Assembly: GCF_055900595.2 (NCBI RefSeq)
Contig: NZ_CM148325.1
Length of the DNA stretch: 64,000 nt
Strand: one strand, 5' to 3'
This document shows, piece after piece, positions 39,330-62,250 of this stretch (position 1 is its first letter; each line of letters starts with the position of its first letter). Both the position numbers and the translations under genes were made by a program. The notes beneath the pieces were generated by a model. It was given only the letters and a program-made list of their open reading frames with translations, did no database searches and had not been told where the DNA came from.

Positions 39330-42300
39330 CAGGCGCTCTCCTTATCTTGTGCAAAGAACGCCCAGGCCACTTTGTAATCGTCTTCGCGATCCGGCTTGAT
39401 AAACGGAGCCTGCCAGGTGACGGTACGGCGCTCGCCTTCGTCGCTGCGGGTATAGTCATCAAAGGTGACGCTGACGGTACCGGTTTGCAGATGTTTGACA
39501 TCATCCCAGCCGATAGCCTGATCGGTGCAGTCACCGCCGGTCCAGTCCGGGCTGTCGACGTTAAAGACAAAGCCGTTTTTCAGGTCAGCTTTACGCGCAG
39601 TGCGAGGCAAGCCAACGCCCACCAGCCCTTTGCTTGGGGTAAAGATAATGCGACCGTTTTGATCGTACCAGGTATCCGCTTCGTACTGGCGCATCACCGG
39701 GAACTGAACGCGATAAATGGTAAGCAGTTCTTCGAGGGTTAACCCTAGCGCCTGCGCCACCAGTACGTCGATTTCCACCAGCGCCTGACGACGACTGTAG
39801 TCAGAGCGTAAGGCGCAGTTACGCTGCCACTCTGGGGTCAGATTGGTGAAGAAATCCTGGGGAAGCGGCGGGAGATCGCGGCTCCAGCGCTGGGTGTTGA
39901 AGTCTGGGGTGTAGCAGGATTGCCAGAGATCAGCGTAATCTTTCGTTAACACATTCAAAGCTAATGCTCTTGAGTTTGCACTCATTAACTCAACATAAGG
40001 GAAGCCACGCAATGTTGATTCATAAACATCCGCCCGCCCTGTTGTTTTCAAATAAAAATCAGCCACTATTGAATGGCAAAATGCAGAGAAACTTAGCAGG
40101 TTTATTGGCTCTCTAAATGTTGTTGAGAGTACAGGGTGTATATGAGCAACGTGCTTTGGAACTATGCTGGATATCATCGAGCGTTCTGATGATGCCCCAA
40201 ACATTCTTCGATTAACAAAACGATAATAGTCCGTCACCTTCCTCGGCTCGTCTTCATCCTGCTCTTTCCACGAAACCCGTGGGGTGCGCTTTGCATACTC
40301 CTGTGCATCACAGGCTGGAATATAGTTAGTGCGCGGCAAATAGTCGTCGGGCAGAGTTAGCAATTCTAGGTTATCGTATGCTTTATTCGTGTCACAAACC
40401 GCTCTAGGCGTATTGTAGAAAGGATTGCCAACAAAAAAATGAGGGCCAGACAAAACCCATTGTGATGCTTCTTCCGGGAACTGTGTATGTCGCTCAATTG
40501 TACCATCGCTTTGCTGATTAGTTTCATGCCACATTTCTAGAGAATAATATTGCCCCTGCAAATCACCTAATCGCCTAGGTTGTTTCGCAAACTTTTCAAG
40601 TACTGCAACCAATTGAGTAGCATGTAACGCAGGAAGACGGGCTTCATGTGCTGTAGTGCCAGCACTATCATAGAGACGCGAGAAAAGACCTAATTGCTTT
40701 AAATTTACATGCAAGACTCGATCGAAATGTCCCTGAAAATTCCATTTAACCTTTATTTTACCATCAATTTCAGTTTCTTCTTTTATCCCCGGAACAATGC
40801 CTTCCCCTTTATGTTCAAAACACGCATCAATAGTTTGAGGAATAAATAAATTTGCTATATTTGAGAATGCCACTATCTGAGAATAGGGGCCATACACATT
40901 AATGCTAAATAATGTCTGGTTATGCACCTCAGTGAATAATTTCGTTTCATTAATAAACTGAAAATGCGCCCTAAGCCTCGGATATACCGACGCACGCAGC
41001 TGCCCGCCTTTTGGGTCATCATAAATCCCTTCCGGGTGCAGGAACCCTGCCACGCCTTTCTCTGCCCCCAGACGCCAGGCCTGCGGCAGGAAGCATTTAT
41101 ACAAGTTGGTCTGCACCCCGCGCAGTACCGGGTAGTTCTGCTGCGCATTGAGGAAGTTTTGCATCCCTTCACAGCCTTCATACTCGCTGCGCCAGGCCGC
41201 TTCCAGCGCCGGGATCTGGTTAAAGGTATCAATACGCAACGTTGCCAGCTTCGATGCACTCAGCTTACGCAGCACAAATTCCGGCTCGTAATCACCCAGC
41301 ACGCCCGCTTCCTGCCATTCCACTTTCAGCCACGGCGGGTTTCCGAGCATCAGGTCAAAACCGCCACGCTCGGCAAACAAGTCGCAGAACTCCAGATCCC
41401 AGTGGAAGAAACGGTGCTGCTTTCTCAGGGCATCGACAATCGCCAGACGCGGCAAATGACGGAACAACACCTCGGTTTTCAGACGACCAGCAACGGAAAA
41501 CAGCGAAGACTCTTCTCGCAGCAGGCCGTCTTCGGCAAACAGATCGCCAGTGGTGTGCTCCGCAACTTCAGTGACTTTTTCCGTGATTACAATCCCGTCG
41601 AGCAGGGTTTCAATCTCAAACAACCAGGTGCCGCGATCCGGTAACTCATCGGCTTTGTCGATCGGCCAGAACCACAGCGCGCACCAGTAGTCCATCACCC
41701 AACGCAGCTTCTGGTAGGCGCTGTTATCTTCAAGACGACCGCTAAAGGTTTCATCTTTACTGCTCAGCGAAGAACGCGTCTGCTCGCTGTTTTCTGCCGG
41801 CCACACCGGGTAGCTGTCGGCGGTTTTCAGACGTTCTGCTTTAAGTTGCTGGCGATAGGTGTTCCACAGAGCTTCCACCTTTTCGCTGATACGCTGCACA
41901 TCAGCAATCTCATGCCCGGCAAAGCTTTTAATAAACTCTTTGCGCCAGCTGTCCAGGGCTTTGAAGTCATCCGGATAACGCTGCTTAACAGTTTTATCGC
42001 TGTAGTTAGCCATACCGCCGTCGGGCAGCAGGAAGTGAAAAATCTGCGTCTCTTCACGCGGCGTGTTCATCGCCAGTTCGACCGGCTCGCTGTTAAGCCA
42101 GCTCGGATCTTTGGCTTTTTTGTAGGTCAGTTCACTCTTGTTGAACACCTGACGGCGCGCGCCCACCAGTGAGTTACCGCAGTGCAGCTGGTAACCAAAC
42201 CACGGTACAAAGGCATCGCCACTGATGGCGTTCAACCACAGCGACACTTCCGCCAGTTCCACCGCCACCGGGTTTAAGTCCACGCCGAAAACGTTGTTGT

Positions 42301-47112: not shown

Positions 47113-47180
47113 CGGTTTTTCTGTCTATTTGGGGCAGTGGCGGTAACGTCATCCTGAAAAATGTGGCGCGGCACACTGCG

Positions 47181-47217
47181 ATAAAAAAGAGGGCCTTAAA
47201 GATATCATGAAGGCCCC
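47181..47217 (-). terminator. Rho-independent terminator between the Druantia-like pair and the SNF2 operon
   Basis: On the minus strand: stem GGGCCTT/AAGGCCC (7 bp, 12-nt loop) followed immediately by TCTTTTTTAT; located 120 bp after the 2107-aa gene stop. Confidence 0.65.
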
Positions 47218-47335
47218 CGGCAAAGTGACAAAATGGGAGGGAATGCGCATAATTTGCGCATGATTTTCAAACAAAAATTATTAAAAAGTGAGCTGGGTCA
47301 ACTCCCCTGGAAGATATCCCCAGGGGAGCAATTAT

Positions 47336-50300
47336 TTATCCAGCGATAACATAACTCCTAAGGTCATTACCCGGGGCAACAGCTCGCGCTCGCGTGTTTG
47401 CCAGCCGTTCAACTTGCTGCGGTACTCGCAGAGCAAAATCAAAGAAGGTGTCTTCAATACAGCGCCAGTAGCTAAGCCCCATGTCGAGCAGGACATAATG
47501 CTGACTGCCATCGCTGAAGGTGACTGTCAGTTCTCGTCCATGCTCCGTACTCTGGTTATCCCCCGTTAACCAGCTAATTGCTCCCGGCCACGCAGGCCCC
47601 AGATATCCTTCTTCAAGTAAAGTGGTCACAACCTGCTGACGATCTTCCTCATTAAGCCACGCGTTATAGAGAGCGTTGTGTTGGCGAGAGTTGTAATCCA
47701 ATTTTTTGACGCAAACAGTGAGGCTGGCGCGTTCCGCCATTCCCTGTTCAACCAGCTCGGTTAAGATTTCACCTAACATACGCGCCGTGAATGGGCTATT
47801 AAGATAACGATCGCTGTACTCAACATGCGTTATCTCTTTGTGGCGGGTAAATGCCTGCTTCCAGCCAGCGTGCTGTTGCGTGACTAACGACCAGAAACGC
47901 GAACCAAACCCTTCCAGCGGCCCGTCCAGTTGCTCGCAGAGGTTGATGCGCACCGCCCCGGTGGGTAAGGCGGGCAGTAAATCTTCTGCACTTAAGGTCT
48001 GACCCGAGAAGGTTTTTCCGGACGTTCCTTTAAGTGTCACTACTGGTGAGGACGCACTTTGTCCCCATAATTCACCAGGTGCAACGGTAGCGCTGTCGTC
48101 TGCGGCCCACTGTTGGCTTTGCCCTTCGCGAGTCACCTGCGCAAGCCAGCGCCCCTTTCCTTGCATGAGTTGCGCAGTGGCAATGGATTTCACTTGTAAG
48201 CGTCCTCCCGGCATCGCCGCCAACGCGGAAAGCTGATGTCTGGAGCTATCAGTTAAGTTTTCCAGCGGCGTGGCCACCAGCAACTCAACATTCCCACCGG
48301 AGGAGGCAAACTGGAGCAACTCTTTAAATAATGGCCATTGGGCAAAGTCCCACTGTTCCTGCGGCCCCGCAAGAACCAGCGAGCAGGAGTCATAAATCTC
48401 GCTGTTCAGGCATTGCGCAATACGTAAACTCAGAGGGTTAGTTTCAACCCGGCTACCATCGACGAAGTACTGATATTCTGGCGCGAGGTTAAGTCGCTGC
48501 AACCGTACATTGGTAAGCAGGGTTAATGCATGGTGACGATCTAATCTGTTGACATAATGCTGACTGTCGTAGCTGAGCAAGCAGTGGTGACAGAATTTAT
48601 CGCAACTGCAATCGAGCAATTTTCTGGCGTAATTAAAGACATCAGCCCAATGGTCGATCAATTGCACTGCATAACCTGCACCACCCGCATTATTGTCGTA
48701 AATGAAGATGGAATATCCGGTATAGCCATTGATATCGCGCGCTTGCTGCGTCGTCACGCCCAGCTCAGTATTTTCGATACCCAATTTATGCGCTAACCCT
48801 TCACGCAAAGCGACCGCAAGGGAACGCGCGGCAACCTCATCACGGATCAACAGGCCATTATCATCATTGAGTTGCAGCTCAACCATATCTGTACGACTGC
48901 TATACCCCAACCACAGATCTTTATGCACATGACCGTGGCACAATTTATTGCTCCCCTGACGATCGTTACTGCCCCCTCGCAACAGGTAATGCGTATTTTC
49001 CCGCTCTGGGTTCTTTAGATTTTCAGGGGTACGCTGGGGTTGAGTTTGAGATTCTGCCCGACCACATGAGAGGCAAATTGCGTAGCCGTGCCCAAATTCC
49101 CCTTCACTGAAGTGGAACAATTCCCCACTATGGCTAAAACGGTAACGTCCTAGCCCAGCATCGGGTAAAGAAACCCACACCGAAGACGGTACAAGAACAC
49201 GTGGATCTTTCCAGGGAAGTTGTGCAGGCATGGATACATCATTATGTGCCTGATAACGAATATCTGTCGCAAAACCAACAGGCTGTAAATAACGCTTCAC
49301 ATCAAGTTGCTGTATATCCGCTTTGCAGTGACTACATTCGACAGGATGGGTAGCACTGGTTGCCCCCGCACCACATTTACGGCAATGCCAGAACCACGGA
49401 ATATGATGATCGCCTGACAGCTCCTGCCCGCTGGCAAGTACCTTGCCAAGCATAATGCCCGAGGAACGATATACTTTTCCGCCCAATACCACATCTGCAC
49501 CAGGCGCATACTCGCGTAATGCTGTAGGTAGATCACGGCAGGGCAATTTTTCAATACGACGAGAAAAGCTTTCTCCCCCTTCATTAGGGTCAGCCTGAGT
49601 AGCTTTTATTGCGCGACGTTTTTCCAGCTCATCTGCCGTCAGATAATTGAAATTGACGACACCAACCGGGAAACCATGCCCTGGCAGGAACGCTTCACTA
49701 ATGAGTTTAGAAAACAGATATGCACCGCGATAATCACGAAGCTGATAAGCGATGGCTTTACCTGCTGGCGTTTCTTCCCACGCGCTGTTATCCGCTTTCA
49801 ACGCTTCGATATTTTCCAACAGTATCGCAAGTTGGCTTCTCCAGCGGATATCAACCTGCTGCATCATTGCTTGTGTGCGGGTCAAGAGCTGGGTTGCCGT
49901 CAATGACATCAGGACGGTTCCCTGAGTAAGGCGTTTAAGTTTATCCGCCAGCTGATCGGCCTGGTTATTTAACCAATGGAGAAAACGAAGACACTGGCTC
50001 TCATCACCTTCAAAGAACCATTTGCAACTCAGTTTTGTCGCATCAGGAACTTCAGCTCGTAAAAACAGACCTAAAACCAGGGCATTAACATGTCGTTGAA
50101 CAATACTGCTGCTCCCAAAACGAACCCGTGGCGCACTGGCAGTAGTGTTGAACGCCCAGAGGGGGTCTTTGAATACCTCCATTCCATGCGCCGTGTTTTT
50201 ACATAACGTAATGGCAGCAGATGCACTCTCTCCACGTCGACCCGCGCGGCCTGCACGCTGCAAATAATTTGCCGGAGCTGGAGGAACGTTGTTCATTGCC

Positions 50301-53300
50301 ACCAAACTCATACCACCAATGTCCACCCCCATCTCCATGGTCGTGGAGCAGTTCAGCACATTAACTTTGCCTGACTTAAATTGTTTTTCATTAAACTGGT
50401 TCTGCTCAGGCGTTCTCTGCGCAGAGTGTTCCTCCAGACGATACCAGCTATCTTTCAGGGCCAGTCGGTCGCTGCGAGTAGACCATAATCCTTCCTCGCG
50501 GGCATGTTGAATCAGCGCATTACTTTCCAGCCACTCCAGGCGTTCTTCTCGGGCGATTTCTCCACCACCAGACAAACGCCAGTGACGTACAGGAAGCTCA
50601 GGCATTTCAATCAACACTGCTTTTTCAGGTGCAATTTCTTTGCTACCCGGCAAATACGGAGAGTATCCCAGCAACGTGACGTCTAACGCACGTCGAGTAT
50701 AGGGGCAACGCCACACTTGCTTTGGACTGTAAAATTCAGCCTGTTGTTTAATATCCAGCTGATAACCCGACTCAAACTGACGTAAGCAGGGTCGAATTGC
50801 ATCCCAGACCTCAATCATTAAGTGGTTAACTAACGATTTCCAGTGAGCCTGCTCAGGTTGTATTGCCGGAAAGACTGCAATTAATAGCTTAATGACCCGG
50901 TTATAATGGCGATCGCGTATTTGTGGCCAAAGTTGATCACGTTTCTGCCCTTTGTTTTTTTTATCTGGACCCTGGAGCATTTTTACCGGGAAACGAGCCC
51001 CCATCCAGCGAGGGTATTGCTCGTTTTCGTAAAAAACGGCACTGTTTTCACGTATAAAGAAATCAAGAGTAATCTTCAATAAATTACGCCATTCCGCTAA
51101 TTGCTTATCGGGATCGGGTAATAATGTCTTCCAGTCCTGCGGGCAGGTTGTAACTTTATCAATAAATGGATAGTGAATGGCTACCAGACCCAGACTTTCG
51201 AGGGTCCAGGCATTTTTAGGGCGGCGACCAAATTCACTGTATAAACAAAAATCTGCAAACTGTTGTTTAGTAAGATCAAGCCCAGACAATTCTTTAAAAC
51301 TGCCTCTCATTCTATCGGCAAGGTCCACACTGCCAACCAGCTGTTCAGACAGTGTTTGCCATGACATGGTTTTCTTCTGCTGATTGCCAGAGTTAGCCTG
51401 GAGTATTTGCATCGCTTCAGCATGATCCGGGCTTAAGGAACTCACCATCGGCTCGATAATTTTAAGTGCCTGAATGTCCGCCGGGCTAAGCTCTTCATTA
51501 GCAACCATCGATTTTTTCAGCGCGTCAATAGAGTTTTTTAAAGGAAGGATAGAAAACTGGGCAATAAAACTCTCTAACAATGCGCAGTGTGCCGGGCTGA
51601 GCTTTGCTGATGGCTCATTAATATTGGCCAACTCCTGGTAGCAAAGAGCTCGCAACGTCGCTTTATCGGCATCCTGCTGTAAGCGGGCAGAAATGCGGGC
51701 AGTGCCCTGACGTGAATCCGTAAAGGTGAGCAGACGTCGACCATTAAACGGTCCTAACTGCTCTTCTCTTGTCTGCGGTAATGGTGAAAACTCCAGCAGA
51801 GTAGGAATAATTTCATTTAAAAAAAAGGGCGCGCCAAGTCGAAGCGGACGGAATAAAGGATTATTTTTTCGTTGGGTGTCACCACAGCAAACACAAGCAA
51901 AGGAATTATTACGTCCCTCACCTCGAGATTCCGGTCTTAACAGGTTTATTTCATAGTGCTTTTGCGCTTCACTATCAATTTTCCCCGCCGTCGTTTCTTC
52001 CAGTGAAATGATATATTTTTCACCATCGCTCGCAATCAGACGATCAAATTGAGAGTTATTGTCTAATTCGTCGTTGTCTTCATCTTCAGAATAAACATCT
52101 ACATCAAGAGCAAACTCATCCACTTCGGCAGCGGCGGGTTGCGCTACCAACCAGTTCGTTCCATCACCGCGCATCTCCTCTTTGGCAGACAAATAAGCTG
52201 AACCACACCCGGAGCAACGTAAAACTTCAAATACCGGCGCACCACAGTCACAATATTGGCGCTGCTCAAACCATACCTGACCAAATGGCCAGTCACTCTG
52301 ATTTAATTCATGTGCTTTATGTGAGCATTGTTTGTTTGAACATGCCCATAGACCCGCCAGTGTTCTGATAAATCCATGCATACGTAATGGCGTAAAAGCC
52401 AGTTCACCTTCTCGCGATCTTGCCATTAGATCGAGGAGTTGCAGTAGCTCACGGTGATTAATATCTGGCCAGGTTCTTCTGGCAACATTGAGCAACTCAC
52501 TCAAACGTACTGCCTGCCGTCCGGGATGAGTTAACGCCTGACGCAATTGCTGGGCCACACGGTAATGACAAAGCTGTTGGTAAAGATCCTGAGGGCTCAG
52601 AGATTTAAGAGAAGTTAAAGATGTGGGGTATTCATGACGAATCAGCGACTCCGATACCCGCGGTATTTGTCGATAGCCGCGAACCACTTTGACATCACGT
52701 TCTGTAACGCCCGCAAGATCAGCGACAAATTTAGCAAGCTCCTTATTACCTTCAGGAGAGTCTTCACCAATAGTGGCAGAGGTCGCGATAATCTGCACAG
52801 GTTTATCTGTGCCAGGTCCAACATTGAAAGCCTGCATAACACGACGTAAAAGCAGCGCTAACTCAGCAGCCTGAGAACCAATATAACTATGGGCTTCATC
52901 CAGGACGATATACTTTAACATCCCCTGAGACTTTTCGATGATTGGGGCATCTTTACGACGAATCAGCATATATTCCAGCATGGTGGTATTCGTCACCATG
53001 ATGGAAGGTGGTGCTTCGTAAATGGCTTCCCGACTCAAAGCTTGTTCAGGTACTTTCAACTGATCTTCCTGAACTTCGTATTTGGTATGCCGGGTTTCGC
53101 CATTATATAGCGCGAAGCGTATTTTCCCCTTAAATCCGCGCGTCCATTCGCGAAGCCGCTCCTGTTGGCTGTTAATTAATGCATTTAACGGATACAAGAA
53201 AATAGCTTGTGTCCCTGTTAGTGACTGACGGGTCGATTTTTGCTGACGAATAAGATCTTCCAGGACCGGTACCATAAAGCATTCTGTTTTCCCGGATCCC

Positions 53301-53659
53301 GTACCGCTGCTCACTAACAAGGATTTTTTGTCTTCCAGAATTGTTCGCCACGCAGTGAGTTGATGACGAAATGGCACTGGCGCTTTGCTCAATGCATCAA
53401 CCTGCGGGCTGGAGATCAGCTTGTCCCGCAAATCCTCCATTGTTTCATCCGCAGGCATCCAGCCGAATGTACTTTCGAATACCGGGCCTGCAAGCAGTGA
53501 CCCCTCCTGACCGGGAGGCTGAAAATATTGTGATTCCAGATAATGAGTCAACGACTTGCTCCGCAATGCCAACTGACTTACCACCGACCTCACCGCACGC
53601 TGATGAAGCTGATTTAGAAGTGGCGCATAATGCAGTTGCTGAACGTCCATCAATGACAT
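47336..53659 (-). CDS. druE: Giant (2107 aa) DEAH helicase with DUF1998-like Zn-ribbon C-terminal region; Druantia DruE-like
   Basis: Motif I LVSSGTGSGKTECFMVPVL, motif II YIVLDEAHSY, motif VI QRAGRAGRRGE; Cys clusters CRKCGAG...CSHCK, CLSCGR, CSCDKFCHHC; start overlaps upstream gene by 10 bp. Confidence 0.7.
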   Translation of the reverse strand: MSLMDVQQLHYAPLLNQLHQRAVRSVVSQLALRSKSLTHYLESQYFQPPGQEGSLLAGPVFESTFGWMPADETMEDLRDKLISSPQVDALSKAPVPFRHQLTAWRTILEDKKSLLVSSGTGSGKTECFMVPVLEDLIRQQKSTRQSLTGTQAIFLYPLNALINSQQERLREWTRGFKGKIRFALYNGETRHTKYEVQEDQLKVPEQALSREAIYEAPPSIMVTNTTMLEYMLIRRKDAPIIEKSQGMLKYIVLDEAHSYIGSQAAELALLLRRVMQAFNVGPGTDKPVQIIATSATIGEDSPEGNKELAKFVADLAGVTERDVKVVRGYRQIPRVSESLIRHEYPTSLTSLKSLSPQDLYQQLCHYRVAQQLRQALTHPGRQAVRLSELLNVARRTWPDINHRELLQLLDLMARSREGELAFTPLRMHGFIRTLAGLWACSNKQCSHKAHELNQSDWPFGQVWFEQRQYCDCGAPVFEVLRCSGCGSAYLSAKEEMRGDGTNWLVAQPAAAEVDEFALDVDVYSEDEDNDELDNNSQFDRLIASDGEKYIISLEETTAGKIDSEAQKHYEINLLRPESRGEGRNNSFACVCCGDTQRKNNPLFRPLRLGAPFFLNEIIPTLLEFSPLPQTREEQLGPFNGRRLLTFTDSRQGTARISARLQQDADKATLRALCYQELANINEPSAKLSPAHCALLESFIAQFSILPLKNSIDALKKSMVANEELSPADIQALKIIEPMVSSLSPDHAEAMQILQANSGNQQKKTMSWQTLSEQLVGSVDLADRMRGSFKELSGLDLTKQQFADFCLYSEFGRRPKNAWTLESLGLVAIHYPFIDKVTTCPQDWKTLLPDPDKQLAEWRNLLKITLDFFIRENSAVFYENEQYPRWMGARFPVKMLQGPDKKNKGQKRDQLWPQIRDRHYNRVIKLLIAVFPAIQPEQAHWKSLVNHLMIEVWDAIRPCLRQFESGYQLDIKQQAEFYSPKQVWRCPYTRRALDVTLLGYSPYLPGSKEIAPEKAVLIEMPELPVRHWRLSGGGEIAREERLEWLESNALIQHAREEGLWSTRSDRLALKDSWYRLEEHSAQRTPEQNQFNEKQFKSGKVNVLNCSTTMEMGVDIGGMSLVAMNNVPPAPANYLQRAGRAGRRGESASAAITLCKNTAHGMEVFKDPLWAFNTTASAPRVRFGSSSIVQRHVNALVLGLFLRAEVPDATKLSCKWFFEGDESQCLRFLHWLNNQADQLADKLKRLTQGTVLMSLTATQLLTRTQAMMQQVDIRWRSQLAILLENIEALKADNSAWEETPAGKAIAYQLRDYRGAYLFSKLISEAFLPGHGFPVGVVNFNYLTADELEKRRAIKATQADPNEGGESFSRRIEKLPCRDLPTALREYAPGADVVLGGKVYRSSGIMLGKVLASGQELSGDHHIPWFWHCRKCGAGATSATHPVECSHCKADIQQLDVKRYLQPVGFATDIRYQAHNDVSMPAQLPWKDPRVLVPSSVWVSLPDAGLGRYRFSHSGELFHFSEGEFGHGYAICLSCGRAESQTQPQRTPENLKNPERENTHYLLRGGSNDRQGSNKLCHGHVHKDLWLGYSSRTDMVELQLNDDNGLLIRDEVAARSLAVALREGLAHKLGIENTELGVTTQQARDINGYTGYSIFIYDNNAGGAGYAVQLIDHWADVFNYARKLLDCSCDKFCHHCLLSYDSQHYVNRLDRHHALTLLTNVRLQRLNLAPEYQYFVDGSRVETNPLSLRIAQCLNSEIYDSCSLVLAGPQEQWDFAQWPLFKELLQFASSGGNVELLVATPLENLTDSSRHQLSALAAMPGGRLQVKSIATAQLMQGKGRWLAQVTREGQSQQWAADDSATVAPGELWGQSASSPVVTLKGTSGKTFSGQTLSAEDLLPALPTGAVRINLCEQLDGPLEGFGSRFWSLVTQQHAGWKQAFTRHKEITHVEYSDRYLNSPFTARMLGEILTELVEQGMAERASLTVCVKKLDYNSRQHNALYNAWLNEEDRQQVVTTLLEEGYLGPAWPGAISWLTGDNQSTEHGRELTVTFSDGSQHYVLLDMGLSYWRCIEDTFFDFALRVPQQVERLANTRARAVAPGNDLRSYVIAG

Positions 53660-56600
53660 ACTCCTGCTTGTTCAAAATAATATTGATAGATTACCCCTAA
53701 TTGCTGTGGGGCTTGCTGATAGTGAAATTCAAAAAGCGCAGACAGTTGATGTATCAGGTTATTATCTTTTTGGGTTAACAGCGCTGCGACTAACATCAAA
53801 TTAAAACGTTTTTCAAGCCGTGAGTGATATTTATCTTCAATCCAAAGCTTATTAAAAACAGATTTTAACTCTGGAGTAATAGCACTAGACCAAAGTTCTT
53901 TAGGGAAGATACTGATACGCCCAAAGCTGTCGGGGTTCCTTAATAGCATCTGTTTAGCTTCATTAAACTGCTCACGACTAACAGTTGGCAATACATCACA
54001 ACCGGTTGGTAGGCTCTCACTATATGTAAGTAACATATTCGCAATGGGAGCCAGCCGACGATCGATATGTGCACGATGGTTCATAAAAGCAATAAAGGGT
54101 TGCAATATATGTAATGCTAATGTTTTATCGTTAATCTGTTTTTCCAGATAAGCCCAACATTTTTGGAAAACATCTTTCCAGATTGAAACGGGAATCCATC
54201 CCCATGAAAAGGGTAATTCTTCCTGTATATCATAAATCGTATCGCTATCACCAGAAAGACATGATGATATTAACAACTGAACAACCACGCGGTAATTACT
54301 CGAAATACCTCTGAACAAGTCCAGATCCAGCAAGGATAAGCCATTATTCATTTTGTATTTCTTAATATACTCTGTTAATAAACAGCAATAATTTTGCAAT
54401 GGGTTGTTATCTATTTCAAAAATTAGCTCATTAAATTTTTTTTTGCGCTGTTCTGGGTCTGCTTCGCATAGAGCATTTAGTAATAAATCATTTGTCTGCA
54501 ATACAGGTAGCATCCATTTAATTACTGGTGCAATGCGAGCTGTACCATCAAGTTTTCCCACAATTAACCATGGACTATCCTGAACATTCAGAGCTGAAAG
54601 ATCATAAGCAAATTCATCTTTTTTTAGCAATGATTTGTGTAAGCCAGGATCCTTAAGAGAAATAGCATCAACAACCAGTTCGTCTATTCTATTTGCAGGA
54701 AAAACAACAGAATTTTTTATATCAACCAGCAACCCTTGATCGTGTTCAATAAAACTACCATCGTAGCGTTTAATATTGAGTGTTGCTTTATCCTTTCCAA
54801 ATCTGTCAGAGTAAAAATCAACACATAATGTACTATTGCTGTTCCATGCACATGCCAGCATAGAATTTAGCAAATTATAGTTCTCATAAAGTGAAATTTG
54901 TTGTAATTTGTCATTGCGTCCTGATAAAAGAGGAAGGTCGGCATGTAAATAACGGAATTTTTCAGCTACTGGATTTTCATCCAATAACTCGATATTAAGA
55001 TATCCTCTTCCAGCACATGACATGGTTAATAACTCAGCATCTATTCCATGCAAATGTGCTATAGATGCCACACCATCAAAATGAACAGAACCATCATTAG
55101 TTACAAATCGGCCACCGCTAACCGGCTTAGGTAATAATAGTTTAAGATTAGAACCATCTTTCCAGGAGACCCGTAAATCAACGGTATTTTCCAGCATCTG
55201 CGATGAATTATAATAAATAGCACACTCGTTTTGTGAATAATCGGACTTAAGTGTTACTTTTTCATTGTTTGTATATTTGTCAATTCTAGTATCCGTTATA
55301 CCAGAAAGCATTATGATGCCTTGCTGAGCACTCTCAGGTATAATATTAATATCGAAGTCTGCTGGTAAAACTACAACTTTACCGCTAAATAAAACCTCAT
55401 CATTAACTATTCGTCTGACTTCTATCTGTCCTTTTGGCATTTCTGATGCGACAGAATACCAGGCATTGTTACCTGAACGAATGGAACGCCAAAAAAGTTC
55501 TTTCTCCGGTACAATGCCATATTGCAGATCCTTTTTCCAACCGATCTTCGGCCAGGCTCGATGGACAGGATAATCCGATTTAACCAGTTCAACTTCTGTC
55601 GATTTAATATAATATTCAATCGCAGAATCATAAAGTTGCTGGGTGCGAATTGTACAAACTGCACCATCATGTAAAACAACACTAAATACTCCACTTATTT
55701 TAGTTAAGCTGCGTTCACTGTTTTTCAGCAACCTTGGGATATCAAACTCACCTTCTCCACTAATATCTAAATGGCTATTTTTCGGTAGCGAAATAAACAG
55801 AGCATTTAGCCTGGAACTCACAGACCCCATACCGACAAGTTTTAGCTGCGATTCACTCTCATTCATCGCTTCAAAAACCCAGGGGAGTTCTTCAGTAAGT
55901 TCATAACCGCCTTTTGGAATTGTGTGGCCTAACAGAATTGGACCTTCATGAAGCGACAACGAGATTTCGGCCATTGCATCTGCACCAGAGAGCTTTTGCA
56001 TCGCAATAGGTAATAACTCGACCCGCCAATCTTGCTGCTCATAACGGCTTAGCATTGCCAACCTTGCCCCGCCATTTCTCCATTTTCCTGAAATGATGAG
56101 TCGGGTCTGCTCCGGCTGAATATTGCATTCAAACAAAGAGGTTAACTGTTCTGTACGCATTGTGGCCGGGAATCGGAACCGGGCATCACAATACCAACTG
56201 TCATCAACATCGACCCAGATTCTTTCAACCTGAAGACTACTTGCACTGCGTATTTCAGAAGATTGAGAAAGTAATCGCCTTACAATCTCTGCAGCATTCG
56301 CTTCGGGGAGAACGAGTGGAAGTTGAAGATGCCAGTCTGGAGAGAGCTTACGTAATGCAGAAACGGGATCACTGCTTTGAGGTGGATGCTCACTAAGTAA
56401 TCGGCAGAGAGTCTCGCAGAATTCACCGGCTATTTCATAGACCAGTTCGTTTTGCATTGTGACAGGAATCGTATCGCCTAATTTTTGTGCAATTTTAGCG
56501 GCAGGATATTGAGATGCTTGCCCACGAAGCGCCTGATATATCCTTCTGAAATAGGTAATCAAATAACCGCTCTCATTTTCAATCATGCGGATAGGTAAAC

Positions 56601-57009
56601 CACCTTCACAAGCCAGTGTATGCAGATAACCCGAAGCTTGCCCCAGGTTTCTTATCTTTCTTTTCCAGTAGCGAATGCCATCATTAACCAGCTTCTGTCG
56701 ATGAACATACGGAACTTTCCAGTCAATAGAATCTAAAATTGTGTCCCATTTAGGGTGTCCGACCGTATGAGTCCGGCGGATAAACTCTGCGGCATATATG
56801 CTAAATAGAACATCGCTATAGGAAATGAATATCGTTCTTGGATAACTACGGGGGGCATATGTACGCAGTAGTTCTGCCAAACTTTCGTACTCTGTATCAG
56901 TACAACGGTAAGCATATAACGCCCGTCCATCAGCTCCGGATAATGAACGGCGACTAAAAAACATGTTAAGCCATTGCAAAAGTGGGTTAACTGGAGTTTT
57001 CACAAGCAA
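53650..57009 (-). CDS. druH: Large (1119 aa) protein without recognisable catalytic motifs; Druantia type III DruH-like partner of DruE
   Basis: Long uninterrupted ORF, no P-loop or nuclease motif visible; translationally coupled to the DruE-like gene; size and pairing match what is described for DruH. Confidence 0.55.
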   Translation of the reverse strand: MLVKTPVNPLLQWLNMFFSRRSLSGADGRALYAYRCTDTEYESLAELLRTYAPRSYPRTIFISYSDVLFSIYAAEFIRRTHTVGHPKWDTILDSIDWKVPYVHRQKLVNDGIRYWKRKIRNLGQASGYLHTLACEGGLPIRMIENESGYLITYFRRIYQALRGQASQYPAAKIAQKLGDTIPVTMQNELVYEIAGEFCETLCRLLSEHPPQSSDPVSALRKLSPDWHLQLPLVLPEANAAEIVRRLLSQSSEIRSASSLQVERIWVDVDDSWYCDARFRFPATMRTEQLTSLFECNIQPEQTRLIISGKWRNGGARLAMLSRYEQQDWRVELLPIAMQKLSGADAMAEISLSLHEGPILLGHTIPKGGYELTEELPWVFEAMNESESQLKLVGMGSVSSRLNALFISLPKNSHLDISGEGEFDIPRLLKNSERSLTKISGVFSVVLHDGAVCTIRTQQLYDSAIEYYIKSTEVELVKSDYPVHRAWPKIGWKKDLQYGIVPEKELFWRSIRSGNNAWYSVASEMPKGQIEVRRIVNDEVLFSGKVVVLPADFDINIIPESAQQGIIMLSGITDTRIDKYTNNEKVTLKSDYSQNECAIYYNSSQMLENTVDLRVSWKDGSNLKLLLPKPVSGGRFVTNDGSVHFDGVASIAHLHGIDAELLTMSCAGRGYLNIELLDENPVAEKFRYLHADLPLLSGRNDKLQQISLYENYNLLNSMLACAWNSNSTLCVDFYSDRFGKDKATLNIKRYDGSFIEHDQGLLVDIKNSVVFPANRIDELVVDAISLKDPGLHKSLLKKDEFAYDLSALNVQDSPWLIVGKLDGTARIAPVIKWMLPVLQTNDLLLNALCEADPEQRKKKFNELIFEIDNNPLQNYCCLLTEYIKKYKMNNGLSLLDLDLFRGISSNYRVVVQLLISSCLSGDSDTIYDIQEELPFSWGWIPVSIWKDVFQKCWAYLEKQINDKTLALHILQPFIAFMNHRAHIDRRLAPIANMLLTYSESLPTGCDVLPTVSREQFNEAKQMLLRNPDSFGRISIFPKELWSSAITPELKSVFNKLWIEDKYHSRLEKRFNLMLVAALLTQKDNNLIHQLSALFEFHYQQAPQQLGVIYQYYFEQAGVCH

Positions 57010-57220
57010 CCTGCCTTCCTTTGATACAATTCGTAACAGGTTACTATCATCATAAAAAAGCTCAACCCGATGAACTCGCTAAAAATGAGACAAATCATTT
57101 ATATCTCGAAAAAACTTGTTACAATCATGAGCGCTACACCGAACTTAACCATATAAATTATGTGCGTTTTGTTTATTTTTTAAACAATTACAACTATCCA
57201 TTATTTACACAGGTATCAAA

Positions 57221-58873
57221 ATGTTAGCGCAGCTTTTTGAGCAGTTGTTTCAATCGATAGACTCTACACTGATCACCAATATTTTCATCTGGGCTGTTAT
57301 ATTCGTATTTTTATCAGCGTGGTGGTGTGACAAAAAAAATATACATAGTAAGTTTAGAGAATATGCTCCAACCTTAATGGGGGCATTAGGTATTCTGGGT
57401 ACTTTCATTGGTATTATTATTGGGTTACTCAATTTTAATACTGAAAGTATTGATACCAGCATCCCCGTATTATTAGGCGGCCTAAAAACAGCATTCATTA
57501 CAAGCATTGTAGGTATGTTTTTTGCCATTTTATTTAATGGAATGGATGCTTTCTTTTTTGCCAATAAACGAAGTGCGTTAGCAGAAAATAACCCTGAATC
57601 TGTTACACCTGAACATATCTATCATGAATTAAAAGAGCAGAACCAGACTCTGACTAAATTAGTCTCGGGTATTAACGGTGATAGTGAAGGTTCTCTTATT
57701 GCTCAAATAAAATTACTACGTACTGAGATTAGCGATTCCTCGCAGGCACAATTAGCTAATCACACTCATTTCAGTAATAAGCTTTGGGAACAACTTGAAC
57801 AATTTGCAGATCTAATGGCAAAAGGTGCTACAGAACAAATTATTGATGCTTTACGACAAGTCATTATTGATTTTAATGAAAATTTAACTGAACAGTTTGG
57901 TGAAAACTTTAAAGCACTTGATGCCTCTGTAAAAAAACTTGTTGAGTGGCAGGAAAATTATAAAACGCAAGTTGAGCTGATGTCAGAACAATATCAACAA
58001 AGTGTCGAGTCTCTGGTTGAAACAAAAACTGCGGTTGCCGGGATTTGGGAAGAATGTAAAGAAATTCCTCTGGCTATGTCTGAACTGCGTGAAGTGCTTC
58101 AGGTGAACCAACATCAAATCAGCGAACTCTCCCGCCATTTAGAAACCTTTGTCGCTATCCGCGATAAAGCTACAACCGTATTACCTGAAATACAGAACAA
58201 AATGGCTGAAGTGGGTGAACTGCTGAAATCCGGAGCTGCAAATGTTAGTGCATCTCTTGAGCAAACCAGCCAGCAAATACTTCTTAATGCAGATTCAATG
58301 CGCGTGGCCCTGGATGAAGGTACCGAAGGATTCAGACAATCGGTTACCCAAACACAACAAGCATTTGCCTCGATGGCACATGATGTCAGCAATTCCTCCG
58401 AAACTCTAACCAGCACGTTAGGTGAAACAATTACTGAAATGAAACAAAGTGGTGAAGAATTCCTGAAGTCACTAGAGTCGCACTCGAAAGAATTGCATAG
58501 AAATATGGAACAAAATACGACTAATGTAATTGATATGTTCAGTAAGACTGGTGAAAAGATTAACCATCAACTATCCAGTAATGCCGATAATATGTTTGAT
58601 TCAATCCAGACATCATTTGATAAGGCAAGTGCAGGGCTGACTTCTCAAGTCAGAGAATCAATTGAAAAATTTGCTCTATCCATCAACGAGCAGTTACATG
58701 CTTTTGAGCAAGCAACTGAACGTGAGATGAACCGTGAAATGCAATCATTAGGTAATGCTCTGCTTTCAATCAGCAAAGGTTTTGTCGGTAACTATGAAAA
58801 ACTTATTAAAGATTACCAAATAATTATGGGGCAGTTACAAGCATTAATTTCTGCTAATAAACATCGAGGGTAA
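57221..58873 (+). CDS. zorA: MotA/ExbB-like membrane protein with long C-terminal coiled-coil tail; Zorya ZorA-like
   Basis: N-terminal TM helices (LITNIFIWAVIFVFLSAWW, LMGALGILGTFIGIIIGLL, AFITSIVGMFFAILFNG) followed by ~400 aa of heptad-like Q/E/L-rich sequence. Confidence 0.75.
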   Translation: MLAQLFEQLFQSIDSTLITNIFIWAVIFVFLSAWWCDKKNIHSKFREYAPTLMGALGILGTFIGIIIGLLNFNTESIDTSIPVLLGGLKTAFITSIVGMFFAILFNGMDAFFFANKRSALAENNPESVTPEHIYHELKEQNQTLTKLVSGINGDSEGSLIAQIKLLRTEISDSSQAQLANHTHFSNKLWEQLEQFADLMAKGATEQIIDALRQVIIDFNENLTEQFGENFKALDASVKKLVEWQENYKTQVELMSEQYQQSVESLVETKTAVAGIWEECKEIPLAMSELREVLQVNQHQISELSRHLETFVAIRDKATTVLPEIQNKMAEVGELLKSGAANVSASLEQTSQQILLNADSMRVALDEGTEGFRQSVTQTQQAFASMAHDVSNSSETLTSTLGETITEMKQSGEEFLKSLESHSKELHRNMEQNTTNVIDMFSKTGEKINHQLSSNADNMFDSIQTSFDKASAGLTSQVRESIEKFALSINEQLHAFEQATEREMNREMQSLGNALLSISKGFVGNYEKLIKDYQIIMGQLQALISANKHRG

Positions 58874-58879
58874 TCGATC

Positions 58880-59587
58880 ATGGATAAGATTATAGGGAAA
58901 CAATTACCTAAAAAAGATCAAGATAATGAACACTGGGTATCCATGTCAGACCTAATGGCAGGGCTGATGATGGTTTTTATGTTCATATCTATTGCTTATA
59001 TGCACTACGTACGTATTGAAAAAGAAAAAATTAAAGAAGTTGCCGTAGCCTACGAGAATGCTCAGTTACAGCTTTATAATGCTCTGGATATTGAGTTTGC
59101 AAAGGATTTGCAAGACTGGGATGCAGAGATCGATAAGCAGACTCTGGAGGTTCGATTTAAATCACCGGATGTTTTATTTGGCTTAGGAAGCACAGAGCTT
59201 AAACCAAAGTTTAAACTCATTCTTGACGACTTCTTTCCTCGCTACCTAAAAGTTCTTGATAATTATCAAGAACATATTACTGAAGTCCGCATTGAAGGTC
59301 ACACAAGTACTGACTGGACTGGAACAACGAATCCTGATATTGCTTATTTTAATAATATGGCACTATCACAAGGTCGTACACGTGCAGTATTACAATACGT
59401 TTATGATATAAAAAATATCGCGACACACCAACAATGGGTTAAAAGTAAATTTGCCGCAGTAGGTTATTCATCTGCACATCCCATTCTTGATAAAACCGGC
59501 AAGGAGGATCCTAATCGCTCTCGTCGTGTCACCTTCAAAGTTGTAACAAATGCCGAGTTGCAGATTAGAAAGATTATTCAGGAGTAA
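58880..59587 (+). CDS. zorB: MotB-like protein with single TM helix and OmpA-type peptidoglycan-binding domain; Zorya ZorB-like
   Basis: TM segment MSDLMAGLMMVFMFISIAY, C-terminal OmpA-family motif (NMALSQGRTRAVLQYV); 6 bp after zorA stop. Confidence 0.75.
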   Translation: MDKIIGKQLPKKDQDNEHWVSMSDLMAGLMMVFMFISIAYMHYVRIEKEKIKEVAVAYENAQLQLYNALDIEFAKDLQDWDAEIDKQTLEVRFKSPDVLFGLGSTELKPKFKLILDDFFPRYLKVLDNYQEHITEVRIEGHTSTDWTGTTNPDIAYFNNMALSQGRTRAVLQYVYDIKNIATHQQWVKSKFAAVGYSSAHPILDKTGKEDPNRSRRVTFKVVTNAELQIRKIIQE

Positions 59588-59590
59588 GAG

Positions 59591-60694
59591 ATGAAATTAT
59601 CTATCGACATTTCAGAACTTATTCAATTAGGGAAGAAAATGTTACCAGAAGGAGTCGATTTTTTTCTGGATGAATCCCCTATTGACTTTGATCCTATAGA
59701 TATTGAGTTATCCACGGGTAAAGAAGTTAGTATCGAAGATCTTGACCCTGGTAGCGGGCTTATCTCTTATCATGGCCGCCAGGTTCTTTTATATATTAGG
59801 GACCATTCAGGGCGTTATGATGCGGCTATCATCGATGGCGAAAAAGGAAAACGTTTTCATATTGCCTGGTGCAGAACTCTTGATGAAATGCGCCATAAAA
59901 ATCGATTTGAAAGGTATCATGCAACTAACCGCATAGATGGTTTATTCGAAATTGATGATGGTTCAGGTCGGAGCCAGGATGTTGATTTACGGGTATGTAT
60001 GAATTGTCTGGAACGACTTAATTACAAAGGAAGTATTGATAAACAAAGGAAAAGAGAGATTTTTAAATCATTCTCATTAAATGAGTTTTTTTCAGATTAT
60101 AGTACCTGTTTTCGTCATATGCCTAAGGGTATCTATGACAAAACAAATAGTGGGTATGTCGAAAACTGGAAAGATATATCAAAATCAATACGAGAAAAGG
60201 CCAAGTATACTTGTAATGATTGTGGTGTGAATTTATCAACCGCCAAAAACTTGTGCCATGTCCATCATAAAAATGGCATCAAATATGATAATCACCATGA
60301 AAACCTTCTTGTTCTGTGTAAGGATTGCCATCGTAAACAGCCCCTCCATGAAGGTATATTCGTTACCCAAGCTGAGATGGCTATCATTCAACGTTTACGT
60401 TCCCAACAAGGGTTATTAAAAGCCGAATCCTGGAATGAAATATATGACCTGACTGATCCATCAGTACATGGTGATATTAATATGATGCAACATAAAGGCT
60501 TTCAACCTCCTGTTCCTGGGTTAGATCTTCAAAACTCAGAACATGAAATTATTGCAACCGTAGAAGCAGCATGGCCAGGCCTTAAAATTGCAGTTAACCT
60601 TACTCCCGCCGAAGTCGAAGGATGGAGAATATATACCGTGGGTGAGCTGGTTAAAGAAATACAAACAGGAGCCTTTACGTCAGCAACGTTGTAA
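59591..60694 (+). CDS. zorE: HNH endonuclease-domain protein; Zorya type II effector ZorE-like
   Basis: HNH motif CNDCGVNLSTAKNLCHVHHKNGIKYDNHHENLLVLCKDCH plus an upstream CMNCLERLNYKG Zn-ribbon; 3 bp after zorB stop. Confidence 0.75.
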   Translation: MKLSIDISELIQLGKKMLPEGVDFFLDESPIDFDPIDIELSTGKEVSIEDLDPGSGLISYHGRQVLLYIRDHSGRYDAAIIDGEKGKRFHIAWCRTLDEMRHKNRFERYHATNRIDGLFEIDDGSGRSQDVDLRVCMNCLERLNYKGSIDKQRKREIFKSFSLNEFFSDYSTCFRHMPKGIYDKTNSGYVENWKDISKSIREKAKYTCNDCGVNLSTAKNLCHVHHKNGIKYDNHHENLLVLCKDCHRKQPLHEGIFVTQAEMAIIQRLRSQQGLLKAESWNEIYDLTDPSVHGDINMMQHKGFQPPVPGLDLQNSEHEIIATVEAAWPGLKIAVNLTPAEVEGWRIYTVGELVKEIQTGAFTSATL

Positions 60695-62171: not shown

Positions 62172-62250
62172 GGAGAATGTCCTTATACGTTCTCAGAACA
62201 GGCAGCAAAAAAACAAATGAGATCAAGGTAATATATCTTCACTTGCAGGC

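What the first reader, a model, noticed from the sequence alone, without database searches (positions are those of the whole stretch)
57010..57220. Zorya and Druantia modules are divergently transcribed from one 211-bp AT-rich intergenic region
Seen in sequence: druH-like starts at 57009 on the minus strand and zorA at 57221 on the plus strand, so both systems must be driven from promoters inside the same short region. Inference: shared or overlapping regulation of two defence systems, which would fit the reported co-occurrence and cooperative activity of Zorya II with Druantia III in E. coli (recalled from the literature, not verified here). I could not assign confident -35/-10 boxes by eye.
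Basis: inference. Interest (0 to 1): 0.5.

Follow-up and report, generated by a model that had tools for sequence, protein, structure and literature searches.

The report
Divergent Zorya II–Druantia III promoter region
The short AT-rich gap between two anti-phage gene sets (Zorya II and Druantia III) is real and probably holds one separate promoter for each, but this head-to-head layout is already published and nothing here shows that the two systems share a regulatory switch.

Summary
druH (53650-57009, minus) and zorA (57221-58873, plus) face away from each other across 211 bp of 32% GC DNA. Comparative data favour a GTG start at 57003, which would make the gap 217 bp. PADLOC identifies DruH3/DruE3 and ZorA2/ZorB2/ZorE2 unambiguously.

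What I add is a footprint from 12 sequences with DruH identity down to 63%. It shows two separate conserved blocks:
- An extended -10 promoter for zorA: TGnTACAAT at 57117-57125, with the n position free to vary.
- A TTGAGC-16-TAAyyT promoter for druH at 57065-57038.

The two -35 elements lie 32 bp apart, back to back.

Shared regulation as the basis of the systems' cooperation is not supported:
- An IS element splits the two blocks in a Serratia genome, and all five genes stay intact.
- A clade with DruH at 48% identity has the two systems in tandem rather than divergent.
- Published synergy was obtained with pBAD vectors on separate plasmids.

No transcription-start data could be retrieved, so the promoter positions remain predictions.

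The parts
57010..57220 (.). Gap between druH and zorA: 211 bp as annotated, 217 bp if druH starts at the GTG at 57003.
   Evidence: GC is 0.318. The junction is present in 521 of 5,426 complete E. coli genomes.
53650..57009 (-). druH (Druantia III, STY4851/ECs_5259 family). The annotated start is TTG at 57009. The comparatively supported start is GTG at 57003.
   Evidence: PADLOC DruH3, E=0, with the profile starting at residue 3. PGAP annotation. AGG-N6-GTG is invariant in 12 sequences.
47336..53659 (-). druE (Druantia III helicase-nuclease). Its start overlaps the end of druH, so the two form one operon.
   Evidence: PADLOC DruE3, E=0. ORF list. PGAP.
57221..58873 (+). zorA2.
   Evidence: PADLOC ZorA2, 2.6e-302. 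PGAP name.
58880..59587 (+). zorB2.
   Evidence: PADLOC ZorB2, 2.2e-104.
59591..60694 (+). zorE (HNH nickase effector).
   Evidence: PADLOC ZorE2, 1.9e-176.
57117..57125 (+). Predicted zorA promoter, extended -10 element TGtTACAAT. Predicted transcription start is about 57132, giving a leader of about 89 nt.
   Evidence: TG and T-12, A-11, A-9 and T-7 are invariant in 12 sequences, while the n position is t, a or c. The element is also kept in L007, where the druH-side block is absent. PWM hit.
57098..57103 (+). Predicted weak -35 of the zorA promoter (TTTATA, 16-bp spacer), inside the conserved TCATTTAT.
57060..57065 (-). Predicted -35 of the druH promoter (TTGAGC), inside the invariant TTGAGCTTT.
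   Evidence: Invariant in all 12 sequences. PWM hit at the same position in all eight druH-adjacent sequences scanned, best minus-strand hit in seven and second best in one.
57038..57043 (-). Predicted -10 of the druH promoter (TAACCT; TAAyyT in relatives). Predicted transcription start is about 57031, giving a leader of 22-28 nt.
   Evidence: T-12, A-11, A-10 and T-7 are invariant and positions -9 and -8 vary. The element sits a fixed 28 nt from the annotated start.
57021..57050 (+). Candidate second rightward promoter (TTGATA-18-TATCAT), interdigitated with the druH promoter. Its status is unresolved.
   Evidence: It is the best consensus match in the region. Its -10 pattern TA..AT is invariant in 12 sequences, but its -35 is absent from the Yersinia/Pantoea/Serratia group and from L027.
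57086..57097 (.). TGA-N6-TCA dyad (AAATGA-N6-TCATTT in E. coli), centred about 41 bp upstream of the predicted zorA start.
   Evidence: Inverted repeat I8. The TGA is invariant, but the TCA half is broken in Pantoea, and both halves are broken in L007.
57209..57214 (+). zorA ribosome-binding site (ACAGGT).
   Evidence: ACAGG is invariant. It lies 7 nt before the ATG.
57010..57019 (-). druH ribosome-binding region (GGAAGGCAGG on the minus strand). The AGG at 57012-57010 lies 6 nt before the GTG at 57003.

Best explanation
The gap is a compact control region that carries two separate sigma-70-type core promoters placed back to back, one for each operon. The zorABE promoter is an extended -10 promoter (TGtTACAAT at 57117-57125, with a weak -35 TTTATA at 57098-57103). 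It should start transcription near 57132 and produce an unstructured, poorly conserved leader of about 89 nt. The druHE promoter (TTGAGC at 57065-57060, a 16-bp spacer, TAACCT at 57043-57038) should start near 57031 and produce a short leader that ends at the AGG ribosome-binding site and the GTG at 57003. The two -35 hexamers are 32 bp apart and the predicted starts about 100 bp apart, so the core elements do not overlap. The five genes move between hosts as one cassette without a regulator gene, so expression most likely depends on the host RNA polymerase and global factors such as growth phase or possibly H-NS on this AT-rich DNA. The head-to-head layout is an inherited feature of this cassette. 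It is not the mechanism of Zorya-Druantia cooperation, which the literature places at the level of DNA intermediates. Shown here: gene identities, the layout, its conservation, and the conserved blocks. Shown in the literature: both operons are functionally active. Inferred: the promoter assignments, the start sites, and the independence of the two promoters.
For: Gene identities and layout. Layout conservation: all 19 distinct related loci outside the window with DruH at 63-99% identity (E. coli SMS-3-5 and EDL933, Escherichia sp. E1V33, Yersinia, Serratia, Enterobacter, Pectobacterium, Pantoea, Lelliottia and metagenome contigs) have zorEBA and druHE head to head. The gap as annotated in E. 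coli is 210-219 bp in every case except Serratia sp. PL17, where the IS element makes it 1279 bp. Footprint: in 12 sequences whose gaps are only 51-69% identical to E. coli, the invariant columns cluster (2 runs of 5 or more against 0.09 expected, P=0.003). They fall into AAAGCTCAA / TTACTA and TCATTTAT / TTGnTACAAT. Within each putative -10, the positions that sigma-70 reads most strictly (-12, -11, -7) never change, while the others vary. A TG two bases upstream of the zorA -10 is invariant and the base between varies (t, a or c). A PWM scan places TTGAGC-16-TAAyyT at the same position in all eight druH-adjacent sequences scanned, as the best minus-strand hit in seven and second best in one. 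Separability: L007 keeps the zorA block but not the druH block. An IS903-like element with a 9-bp target duplication sits exactly between the blocks in Serratia sp. PL17, with all five ORFs intact. Activity: zorABE and druHE deletions in EDL933 lose defence (10.1101/2025.09.22.677730), and the EDL933 gap differs from the window by 2 SNPs in the zorA leader. A DruH (Z5897) peptide was detected in EHEC (PMC3681748). Each system cloned alone with its 'native promoter' protects K-12 strains (PMC11890865; 10.64898/2026.05.12.722862). No RNA element: Rfam finds nothing and the leader fold has z=-0.69.
Against: No transcription start site has been seen for either gene, so both promoters are predictions. 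The druH -10 (TAACCT) matches only 3 of 6 consensus bases and fell below the threshold of the standard scan. The zorA -35 is weak. Conservation around the druH promoter (57034-57065) extends beyond what a -35 and a -10 need, including invariant bases in the spacer. Something else may therefore be encoded there. The highest-scoring consensus promoter in the region is a different one (57021-57050, plus strand). The 12 sequences fall into about four deep lineages and are not independent. The boundaries of the published 'native promoter' clones are not given in the text I could read.
Confidence: 0.6

Rival explanations
1. Interdigitated divergent promoters. A second rightward promoter (TTGATA at 57021-57026, an 18-bp spacer, TATCAT at 57045-57050, start about 57057) overlaps the leftward druH promoter. 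RNA polymerase could then occupy only one at a time, and Zorya and Druantia expression would be coupled by competition.
For: This is the best sigma-70 consensus match in the region (10 of 12; top PWM score of 10.2 in E. coli and the 83% clade, 8.6 in Enterobacter). Its -10 pattern TA..AT is invariant in all 12 sequences. It would explain the otherwise unexplained invariant bases in the druH promoter spacer.
Against: Its -35 is missing from the Yersinia/Pantoea/Serratia group and from L027. The TA..AT conservation could be a by-product of constraints on the other strand. L007 keeps only the downstream extended -10 promoter, so zorA does not need this one. There are no start-site data.
Confidence: 0.2
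2. A shared host transcription factor binds a conserved site in the gap and co-regulates both operons. Candidate sites are the TGA-N6-TCA dyad at 57086-57097, which has CRP class II geometry at about -41.5 from the predicted zorA start, and the 17-bp invariant block at 57034-57050.
For: The dyad AAATGA-N6-TCATTT is present in E. coli, and TGA plus TCAT is conserved in most lineages. Its position between the two promoters suits action on both. druH (ECs5259) falls about 4-fold at entry to stationary phase in O157 Sakai (PMC2241611), so some regulation exists.
Against: Only 6 of 10 CRP core bases match, and the G of TGTGA at position 5 is missing. The dyad is broken in Pantoea (TGA...TGA) and in L007 (AGA...TTA). 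The Serratia IS insertion leaves the dyad with zorA only, separating it from druH. No regulator gene is carried with the cassette, and its flanks differ in every genus. zorA is not in the same differential-expression list as druH.
Confidence: 0.15
3. Xenogeneic silencing. H-NS or Hha coats the AT-rich gap and the AT-rich 5' part of zorA and dampens both promoters together. The 'shared regulation' would then be generic silencing of foreign DNA.
For: GC is 0.32 in the gap and 0.33-0.37 over the first 800 nt of zorA, against 0.47 for the window. ATATAAATT at 57152-57160 resembles the H-NS high-affinity motif TCGATAAATT (recalled from memory). Defence by native Druantia III in EHEC is weaker than when the system is expressed heterologously (10.1101/2025.09.22.677730).
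Against: No H-NS binding data for this locus were found. The motif is not conserved in other lineages. Both systems give clear phenotypes from their native context, so they are not silent.
Confidence: 0.3

Closest known systems
[quoted passage not shown] 2025 preprint, 10.1101/2025.09.22.677730). It is also present in E. coli ATCC 8739, SMS-3-5 and ECOR19.
   Same: The genes, their order and their orientation are the same. The gap sequence is 99% identical to EDL933 and SMS-3-5. [quoted passage not shown] ArmA- and ArmB-like genes follow druE in the window.
   Different: Nothing differs at the level of the layout. The preprint does not map promoters or discuss the intergenic region; the word 'intergenic' does not occur in it.
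Zorya II / Druantia III co-occurrence, co-localisation and synergy (Wu et al., 10.1101/2022.08.21.504612; PMC13192584).
   Same: The same pair of systems. It is reported as non-randomly co-localised on the E. coli chromosome and synergistic. Cluster 11 Druantia III is frequently carried together with Zorya II and ARMADA II.
   Different: Those studies place the cooperation at the level of DNA intermediates, RecBCD and ZorE. They used pBAD-driven genes on separate plasmids, so the cooperation does not depend on the shared gap.
Back-to-back divergent promoter pairs coupled through local supercoiling, such as ilvY-ilvC (twin-domain model). Recalled from general knowledge, not checked here.
   Same: Two outward-facing promoters about 100 bp apart with non-overlapping core elements. 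Transcription from one could in principle stimulate the other through negative supercoils.
   Different: No evidence for such coupling exists here. No regulator comparable to IlvY is encoded nearby.
Divergent operons with one shared operator, such as bioA/bioBFCD with BirA or tetA/tetR. Recalled from general knowledge.
   Same: Two operons leave one short control region in opposite directions.
   Different: Here no conserved dyad operator covering both promoters was recognised by eye in the alignments, no cognate repressor gene is linked, and an IS element can split the region.
Symmetric bidirectional promoters with overlapping -10 elements and about 18 bp between starts (Warman et al. 2021). 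Recalled from memory.
   Same: AT-rich horizontally acquired DNA with -10-like hexamers on both strands close together (57038-57043 minus, 57045-57050 plus).
   Different: The hexamers are adjacent and do not overlap. The predicted distance between starts is about 26 bp for the candidate pair and about 100 bp for the best-supported pair.

Membership tests
Zorya type II | A zorA (MotA-like), zorB (MotB/OmpA-like) and zorE (HNH) operon in that order. | tested here: met
   PADLOC gives ZorA2 2.6e-302, ZorB2 2.2e-104 and ZorE2 1.9e-176 for three consecutive plus-strand ORFs. PGAP uses the same names in genomes 99.9% identical.
Druantia type III | druH followed by druE (large SF2 helicase with DUF1998/MZB), and no druA-D or druF-G genes. 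| tested here: met
   PADLOC gives DruH3 E=0 and DruE3 E=0. The two ORFs overlap at their junction. In relatives, Pfam finds YjiT_N/YjiT_2nd in DruH and DEAD/Helicase_C/MZB in DruE.
[quoted passage not shown] | armABCD lies directly downstream of druE, on the same strand. | tested here: met
   ORFs 44254..47112 (DrmD-like helicase) and 39329..44251 (methyltransferase) follow druE on the minus strand. The order matches SMS-3-5 and EDL933. armC and armD were not examined in the window.
Divergent promoter region, back-to-back class | Two adjacent genes on opposite strands pointing away from each other, with no gene between them. | tested here: met
   The only ORF in the gap (57021..57227, 68 aa, TTG start) is not conserved; the alignments have indels there.
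Divergent promoter region, back-to-back class | Two mapped transcription starts whose core promoter elements do not overlap. | not testable with these tools
   Only predictions are available. The held copies of the EDL933 Cappable-seq tables are truncated before 5.41 Mb.
Extended -10 promoter (zorA) | A TGn motif immediately upstream of a -10 hexamer, with tolerance of a weak -35. | tested here: met
   TGtTACAAT at 57117-57125. The TG is invariant and n varies in 12 sequences plus L007. This is a sequence criterion only; activity was not tested.
Divergent operons with one shared operator (bio or tet type) | A single conserved operator overlapping both promoters, plus a cognate regulator. | tested here: inconclusive
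   No conserved dyad spanning both promoters was recognised by eye in the alignments. An inverted-repeat search was run on the E. coli sequence only, and no dyad or motif search was run on the alignments. No regulator gene is linked, and the flanks differ in each genus. An IS element separates the two blocks in Serratia.
Class II CRP-dependent promoter | TGTGA-N6-TCACA centred at -41.5. | tested here: not met
   The geometry fits (centre 57091.5, predicted start 57132). However, only TGA and TCA match (6 of 10), and the dyad is broken in Pantoea and L007.
Symmetric bidirectional promoter (overlapping -10 elements) | Opposite-strand -10 hexamers that overlap, with starts about 18 bp apart. | tested here: not met
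   The hexamers at 57038-57043 (minus) and 57045-57050 (plus) are adjacent and do not overlap. The predicted spacing is about 26 bp.
Known structured RNA leader (riboswitch, thermometer, sRNA) | A match to an Rfam family, or a fold more stable than shuffled sequence. | tested here: not met
   No Rfam hit at E<=1 over 56700-57500. The predicted zorA leader fold has z=-0.69. The leader sequence is not conserved.

The most novel reading that the evidence does not exclude
The conserved control region couples the two defence systems in cis. The 17-bp invariant block at 57034-57050 would carry two interdigitated promoters, or a site for a host factor. RNA polymerase or that factor would then set the ratio of Druantia to Zorya expression, for example ZorE relative to DruHE, and this tuning would be part of why the head-to-head cassette is kept across Enterobacterales.
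Probability: 0.12. Interest if true: 0.5.

Novelty: already known. Interest (0 to 1): 0.2.

Why it matters
Zorya II and Druantia III are a well-studied example of two bacterial immune systems that work better together, and how such pairs are expressed in their native hosts is largely unstudied. A promoter-level map of the shared gap gives precise targets for reporter and mutation experiments. It also argues that the cooperation does not rest on a common switch. The gain is modest: the layout is published, and the promoter assignments remain predictions.

Tried and rejected
1. Published transcription-start data. The EDL933 Cappable-seq paper (PMC10469882) maps to NZ_CP008957, but the stored supplementary tables are cut off long before 5.41 Mb, so there are no entries for 5412557-5412767. 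The Sakai dRNA-seq paper (PMC7547250) has no held supplements.

2. EDL933 RNA-seq under eleven conditions (PMC4048457). The held supplements do not mention Z5894-Z5899, so no co-expression test was possible.

3. Transfer of K-12 start-site maps through yjiT/yjiV. K-12 YjiT is only 27% identical to this DruH, its upstream region is unrelated, and there is no Zorya there.

4. Structured RNA in the gap or the zorA leader. Rfam finds nothing, the fold is no better than shuffles, and the sequence is not conserved.

5. CRP, Fur, LexA, IHF and sigma-E readings of the conserved blocks, checked by eye against remembered consensus sequences. None fits well or is conserved. The sigma-E-like GAGCTT-17-TCTGT exists only in some lineages.

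6. Repetition of the conserved blocks elsewhere in the window, which would indicate a shared island-wide motif. The druH block is unique. The zorA block has only 2-3-mismatch hits inside coding regions.

7. Promoter conservation in the 48% clade. The DNA upstream of druH in L017 and L023 is unrelated to the E. coli block, so the footprint cannot be extended that far.

8. The simple consensus scan gives no enrichment over shuffles, so it cannot locate the promoters on its own.

Full report
OBSERVATION

The window carries a minus-strand ORF at 53650..57009 and a plus-strand ORF at 57221..58873, separated by 211 bp. PADLOC profiles identify the following:
- the left pair as DruH3 and DruE3 (both E=0);
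- the right trio as ZorA2, ZorB2 and ZorE2 (2.6e-302, 2.2e-104, 1.9e-176);
- the genes after druE as a DrmD-like helicase and a large methyltransferase, which are the ARMADA II genes armA and armB of the published island.

NCBI's annotation of near-identical genomes uses the same start coordinates. The gap has 31.8% GC, against 47.4% for the window. That is within the lowest 3.6% of 211-bp windows, although the first 800 nt of zorA are almost as AT-rich.

One refinement concerns the druH start:
- The codon equivalent to the TTG at 57009 is CTA or CTG in Enterobacter, Lelliottia and Pectobacterium relatives.
- AGG-N6-GTG is invariant in all 12 aligned sequences.
- The PADLOC DruH3 profile starts at residue 3.
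- Several relatives are called as 1117 aa.

druH therefore more likely starts at the GTG at 57003, which makes the gap 217 bp.

HOW COMMON IT IS, AND WHAT IS ALREADY KNOWN

The junction (56700-57500) is found in 521 of 5,426 complete E. coli genomes, and in 511 of them at 99% identity or more. The 5' part of zorA alone is in 529 genomes and the 5' part of druH alone in 514. In E. coli the two are effectively always together.

The literature already describes this:
- A 2026 preprint traces the synergy to shared DNA intermediates and RecBCD. It notes that cluster 11 Druantia III is frequently carried together with Zorya II and ARMADA II (PMC13192584).

The EDL933 gap differs from the window by two SNPs, both in the variable zorA leader. 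None of these papers maps promoters or discusses the intergenic region.

ANATOMY FROM COMPARISON

I collected relatives in three ways: a protein-guided scan of one genome per species, a DNA pattern on the zorA start codon region in metagenomes that excluded the E. coli allele, and look-ups of DruH homologues.

All 19 distinct related loci outside the window with DruH at 63-99% identity have zorEBA and druHE head to head. They are E. coli SMS-3-5 and EDL933, Escherichia sp. E1V33, Yersinia proxima, Serratia sp. PL17, an Enterobacter MAG, Pectobacterium polaris, Pantoea sp. RG18, Lelliottia amnigena, and metagenome contigs at about 83% and about 63%. The gap, measured as annotated in E. coli, is 210-219 bp in every one except Serratia sp. 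PL17, where an inserted IS element brings it to 1279 bp.

The gaps themselves are only 51-69% identical to the E. coli gap. Even so, invariant columns cluster: 2 runs of five or more against 0.09 expected from column shuffles, P=0.003. These sequences represent only about four deep lineages, so the P value is generous.

The invariant mask across 12 sequences is:
- ACA..TTACTA..AT......AAAGCTCAA (57034-57065);
- TGA (57086-57088);
- T.AT.T within TCATTTAT (57095-57102);
- TTG.TA.A.T (57116-57125);
- ACAGG (57209-57213, the zorA ribosome-binding site).

READING THE BLOCKS

On the plus strand, 57117-57125 is TGtTACAAT, an extended -10 element. TG, T-12, A-11, A-9 and T-7 never change. The base between TG and the hexamer is t, a or c in different lineages, and single lineages have TAGAAT or TACACT. 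This is the pattern expected if the element is read by sigma-70. With a 16-bp spacer the -35 is the weak TTTATA at 57098-57103, which is common for extended -10 promoters. The start would be near 57132. The 89-nt leader is not conserved, has no Rfam match and folds no better than shuffled sequence (z=-0.69).

On the minus strand, TTGAGC (57065-57060), 16 bp, then TAACCT (57043-57038; TAATCT or TAATGT in relatives) lies at the same position, 28 nt from the annotated start, in all eight druH-adjacent sequences scanned. It is the best minus-strand hit in seven and the second best in one. Again the -12, -11 and -7 positions are invariant while -9 and -8 vary. The start would be near 57031.

The two -35 hexamers are 32 bp apart and the predicted starts about 100 bp apart. 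This is a back-to-back pair with non-overlapping cores.

ARE THE TWO SIDES SEPARABLE?

Three natural observations suggest they are:
- L007 is a zorA2 relative whose contig ends 326 bp upstream. It keeps the zorA block, but everything to its left is unrelated and lacks the druH block.
- In Serratia sp. PL17 an IS903-like element lies exactly between the two blocks, 3 nt from the TGA. It has inverted repeats GGCTTTGTTGAATAA... and a 9-bp duplication CCTTCAAGA/CCTTCACGA. The gap grows to 1279 bp, and all five ORFs remain full length.
- In a clade with DruH at 48% identity (L017), PADLOC-confirmed ZorA2, ZorB2, ZorE2 and DruH3 lie in tandem on one strand with a 336-bp spacer before druH. Adjacency therefore recurs without the divergent layout.

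More distant Druantia III loci at 33-35% identity have no Zorya immediately upstream.

IS EACH DIRECTION ACTIVE?

There is functional evidence, though no start-site evidence:
- Deleting zorABE or druHE in EDL933 reduces defence from the native context.
- A DruH (Z5897) phosphopeptide was detected in EHEC.
- druH (ECs5259) appears in an O157 Sakai microarray and falls about 4-fold at entry into stationary phase.
- Zorya II from E. coli ATCC 8739 "under its native promoter" protects E. coli MT56.
- The Druantia III operon from ATCC 8739/NCTC12923 "with its native promoter" protects K-12.

The clone boundaries are not given in the text I could read.

DOES THE LAYOUT EXPLAIN THE COOPERATION?

The evidence points away from this:
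- The synergy was first shown, and later dissected, with the two systems on separate pBAD plasmids, so no cis link is needed.
- No regulator gene travels with the cassette, and its flanks differ in each genus.
- No dyad operator conserved across both promoters was recognised by eye in the alignments. No dedicated dyad or motif search was run on them.
- The one dyad in E. coli (AAATGA-N6-TCATTT at 57083-57100) sits about 41 bp upstream of the predicted zorA start, which is class II CRP geometry. It matches only 6 of 10 CRP core bases and is broken in Pantoea and L007.

WHAT REMAINS UNEXPLAINED

Conservation around the druH promoter covers more than a -35 and a -10. Invariant bases lie in the spacer (TAG at 57044-57046, AT at 57049-57050) and beside the -35 (TTT).

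On the other strand these bases form TA..AT (57045-57050). Together with TTGATA at 57021-57026, this is the best consensus promoter in the region. It points toward zorA and is interdigitated with the druH promoter. Its -35 is present in the E. coli and Enterobacter groups but absent from the Yersinia group and L027.

It could be a real second promoter that competes with PdruH, a protein-binding site, or a by-product. This is the basis of the most novel reading that I cannot exclude.

VERDICT

The inference that both promoters lie in the gap is well supported. The inference of shared regulation underlying the cooperation is not supported. The layout is already published. The added value is a testable promoter map and a probable correction of the druH start codon. 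Start-site data exist for EDL933, but the held copies of the tables are truncated. Checking positions 5412645 (minus), 5412746 (plus) and 5412720 (minus) in NZ_CP008957.1 would settle the map.

Noticed in passing
window 57001-57009 (minus strand): The annotated TTG start of druH is probably wrong by two codons. AGG-N6-GTG is invariant in 12 relatives, whereas the TTG position is CTA or CTG in three genera. GTG at 57003 would give a DruH of 1117 aa, which matches the length of the PADLOC profile.
   Followed up: yes
L004 about 5873-6938 (Serratia sp. PL17): An IS903-like element is inserted in the zorA-druH gap between the two conserved blocks. It has terminal inverted repeats GGCTTTGTTGAATAA, a 9-bp target duplication with one mismatch, and a transposase reading frame that appears disrupted (224-aa ORF). 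All five defence ORFs are intact.
   Followed up: partly
L017 285-13562 (ENA metagenome contig): Here Zorya II and Druantia III (DruH at 48% identity) lie in tandem on one strand, zorA-zorB-zorE-druH-druE, with a 336-bp spacer. The spacer contains an 11-nt inverted repeat (AGGGAAGGTGC / GCACCTTCCCT) about 90 nt apart. Part of the spacer is shared with L023.
   Followed up: partly
window 47113-47335 (minus strand): The 223-bp gap between druE and the ARMADA II gene armA begins with a strong GC-rich hairpin (CTCCCCTGG-N9-CCAGGGGAG) just after the druE stop codon, without a T run. It may mark the end of the druHE transcript, and armABCD may have its own promoter.
   Followed up: no
L024 12414-16855 (E. 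coli K-12 MG1655 yjiT and yjiV): K-12 yjiT (505 aa) and the yjiV pseudogene are remote relatives of DruH and DruE (YjiT is 27% identical to this DruH over about 250 aa). They sit beside mcrBC and hsdRMS, apparently as a decayed Druantia III of another cluster, with no Zorya next to them.
   Followed up: partly
window 57222-57250 and relatives: The first ten codons of zorA (MLAQLFEQLF) are almost identical at the DNA level across genera whose ZorA proteins are only about 80% identical overall. This is more conserved than expected for a coding start and may reflect constraints on translation initiation.
   Followed up: no
window 57021-57030 and 57116-57125: There are two direct copies of TTGnTACAAT (TTGATACAAT and TTGTTACAAT) 95 bp apart on the plus strand. 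The first lies in the druH leader and is conserved only in E. coli and the 83% clade.
   Followed up: partly
window 61521-63180: Downstream of zorE lie an HNH endonuclease gene (minus strand) and a gene for a phosphorothioate-DNA-binding restriction endonuclease (plus strand), as annotated in SMS-3-5. They form a further divergent defence gene pair in the same island.
   Followed up: no
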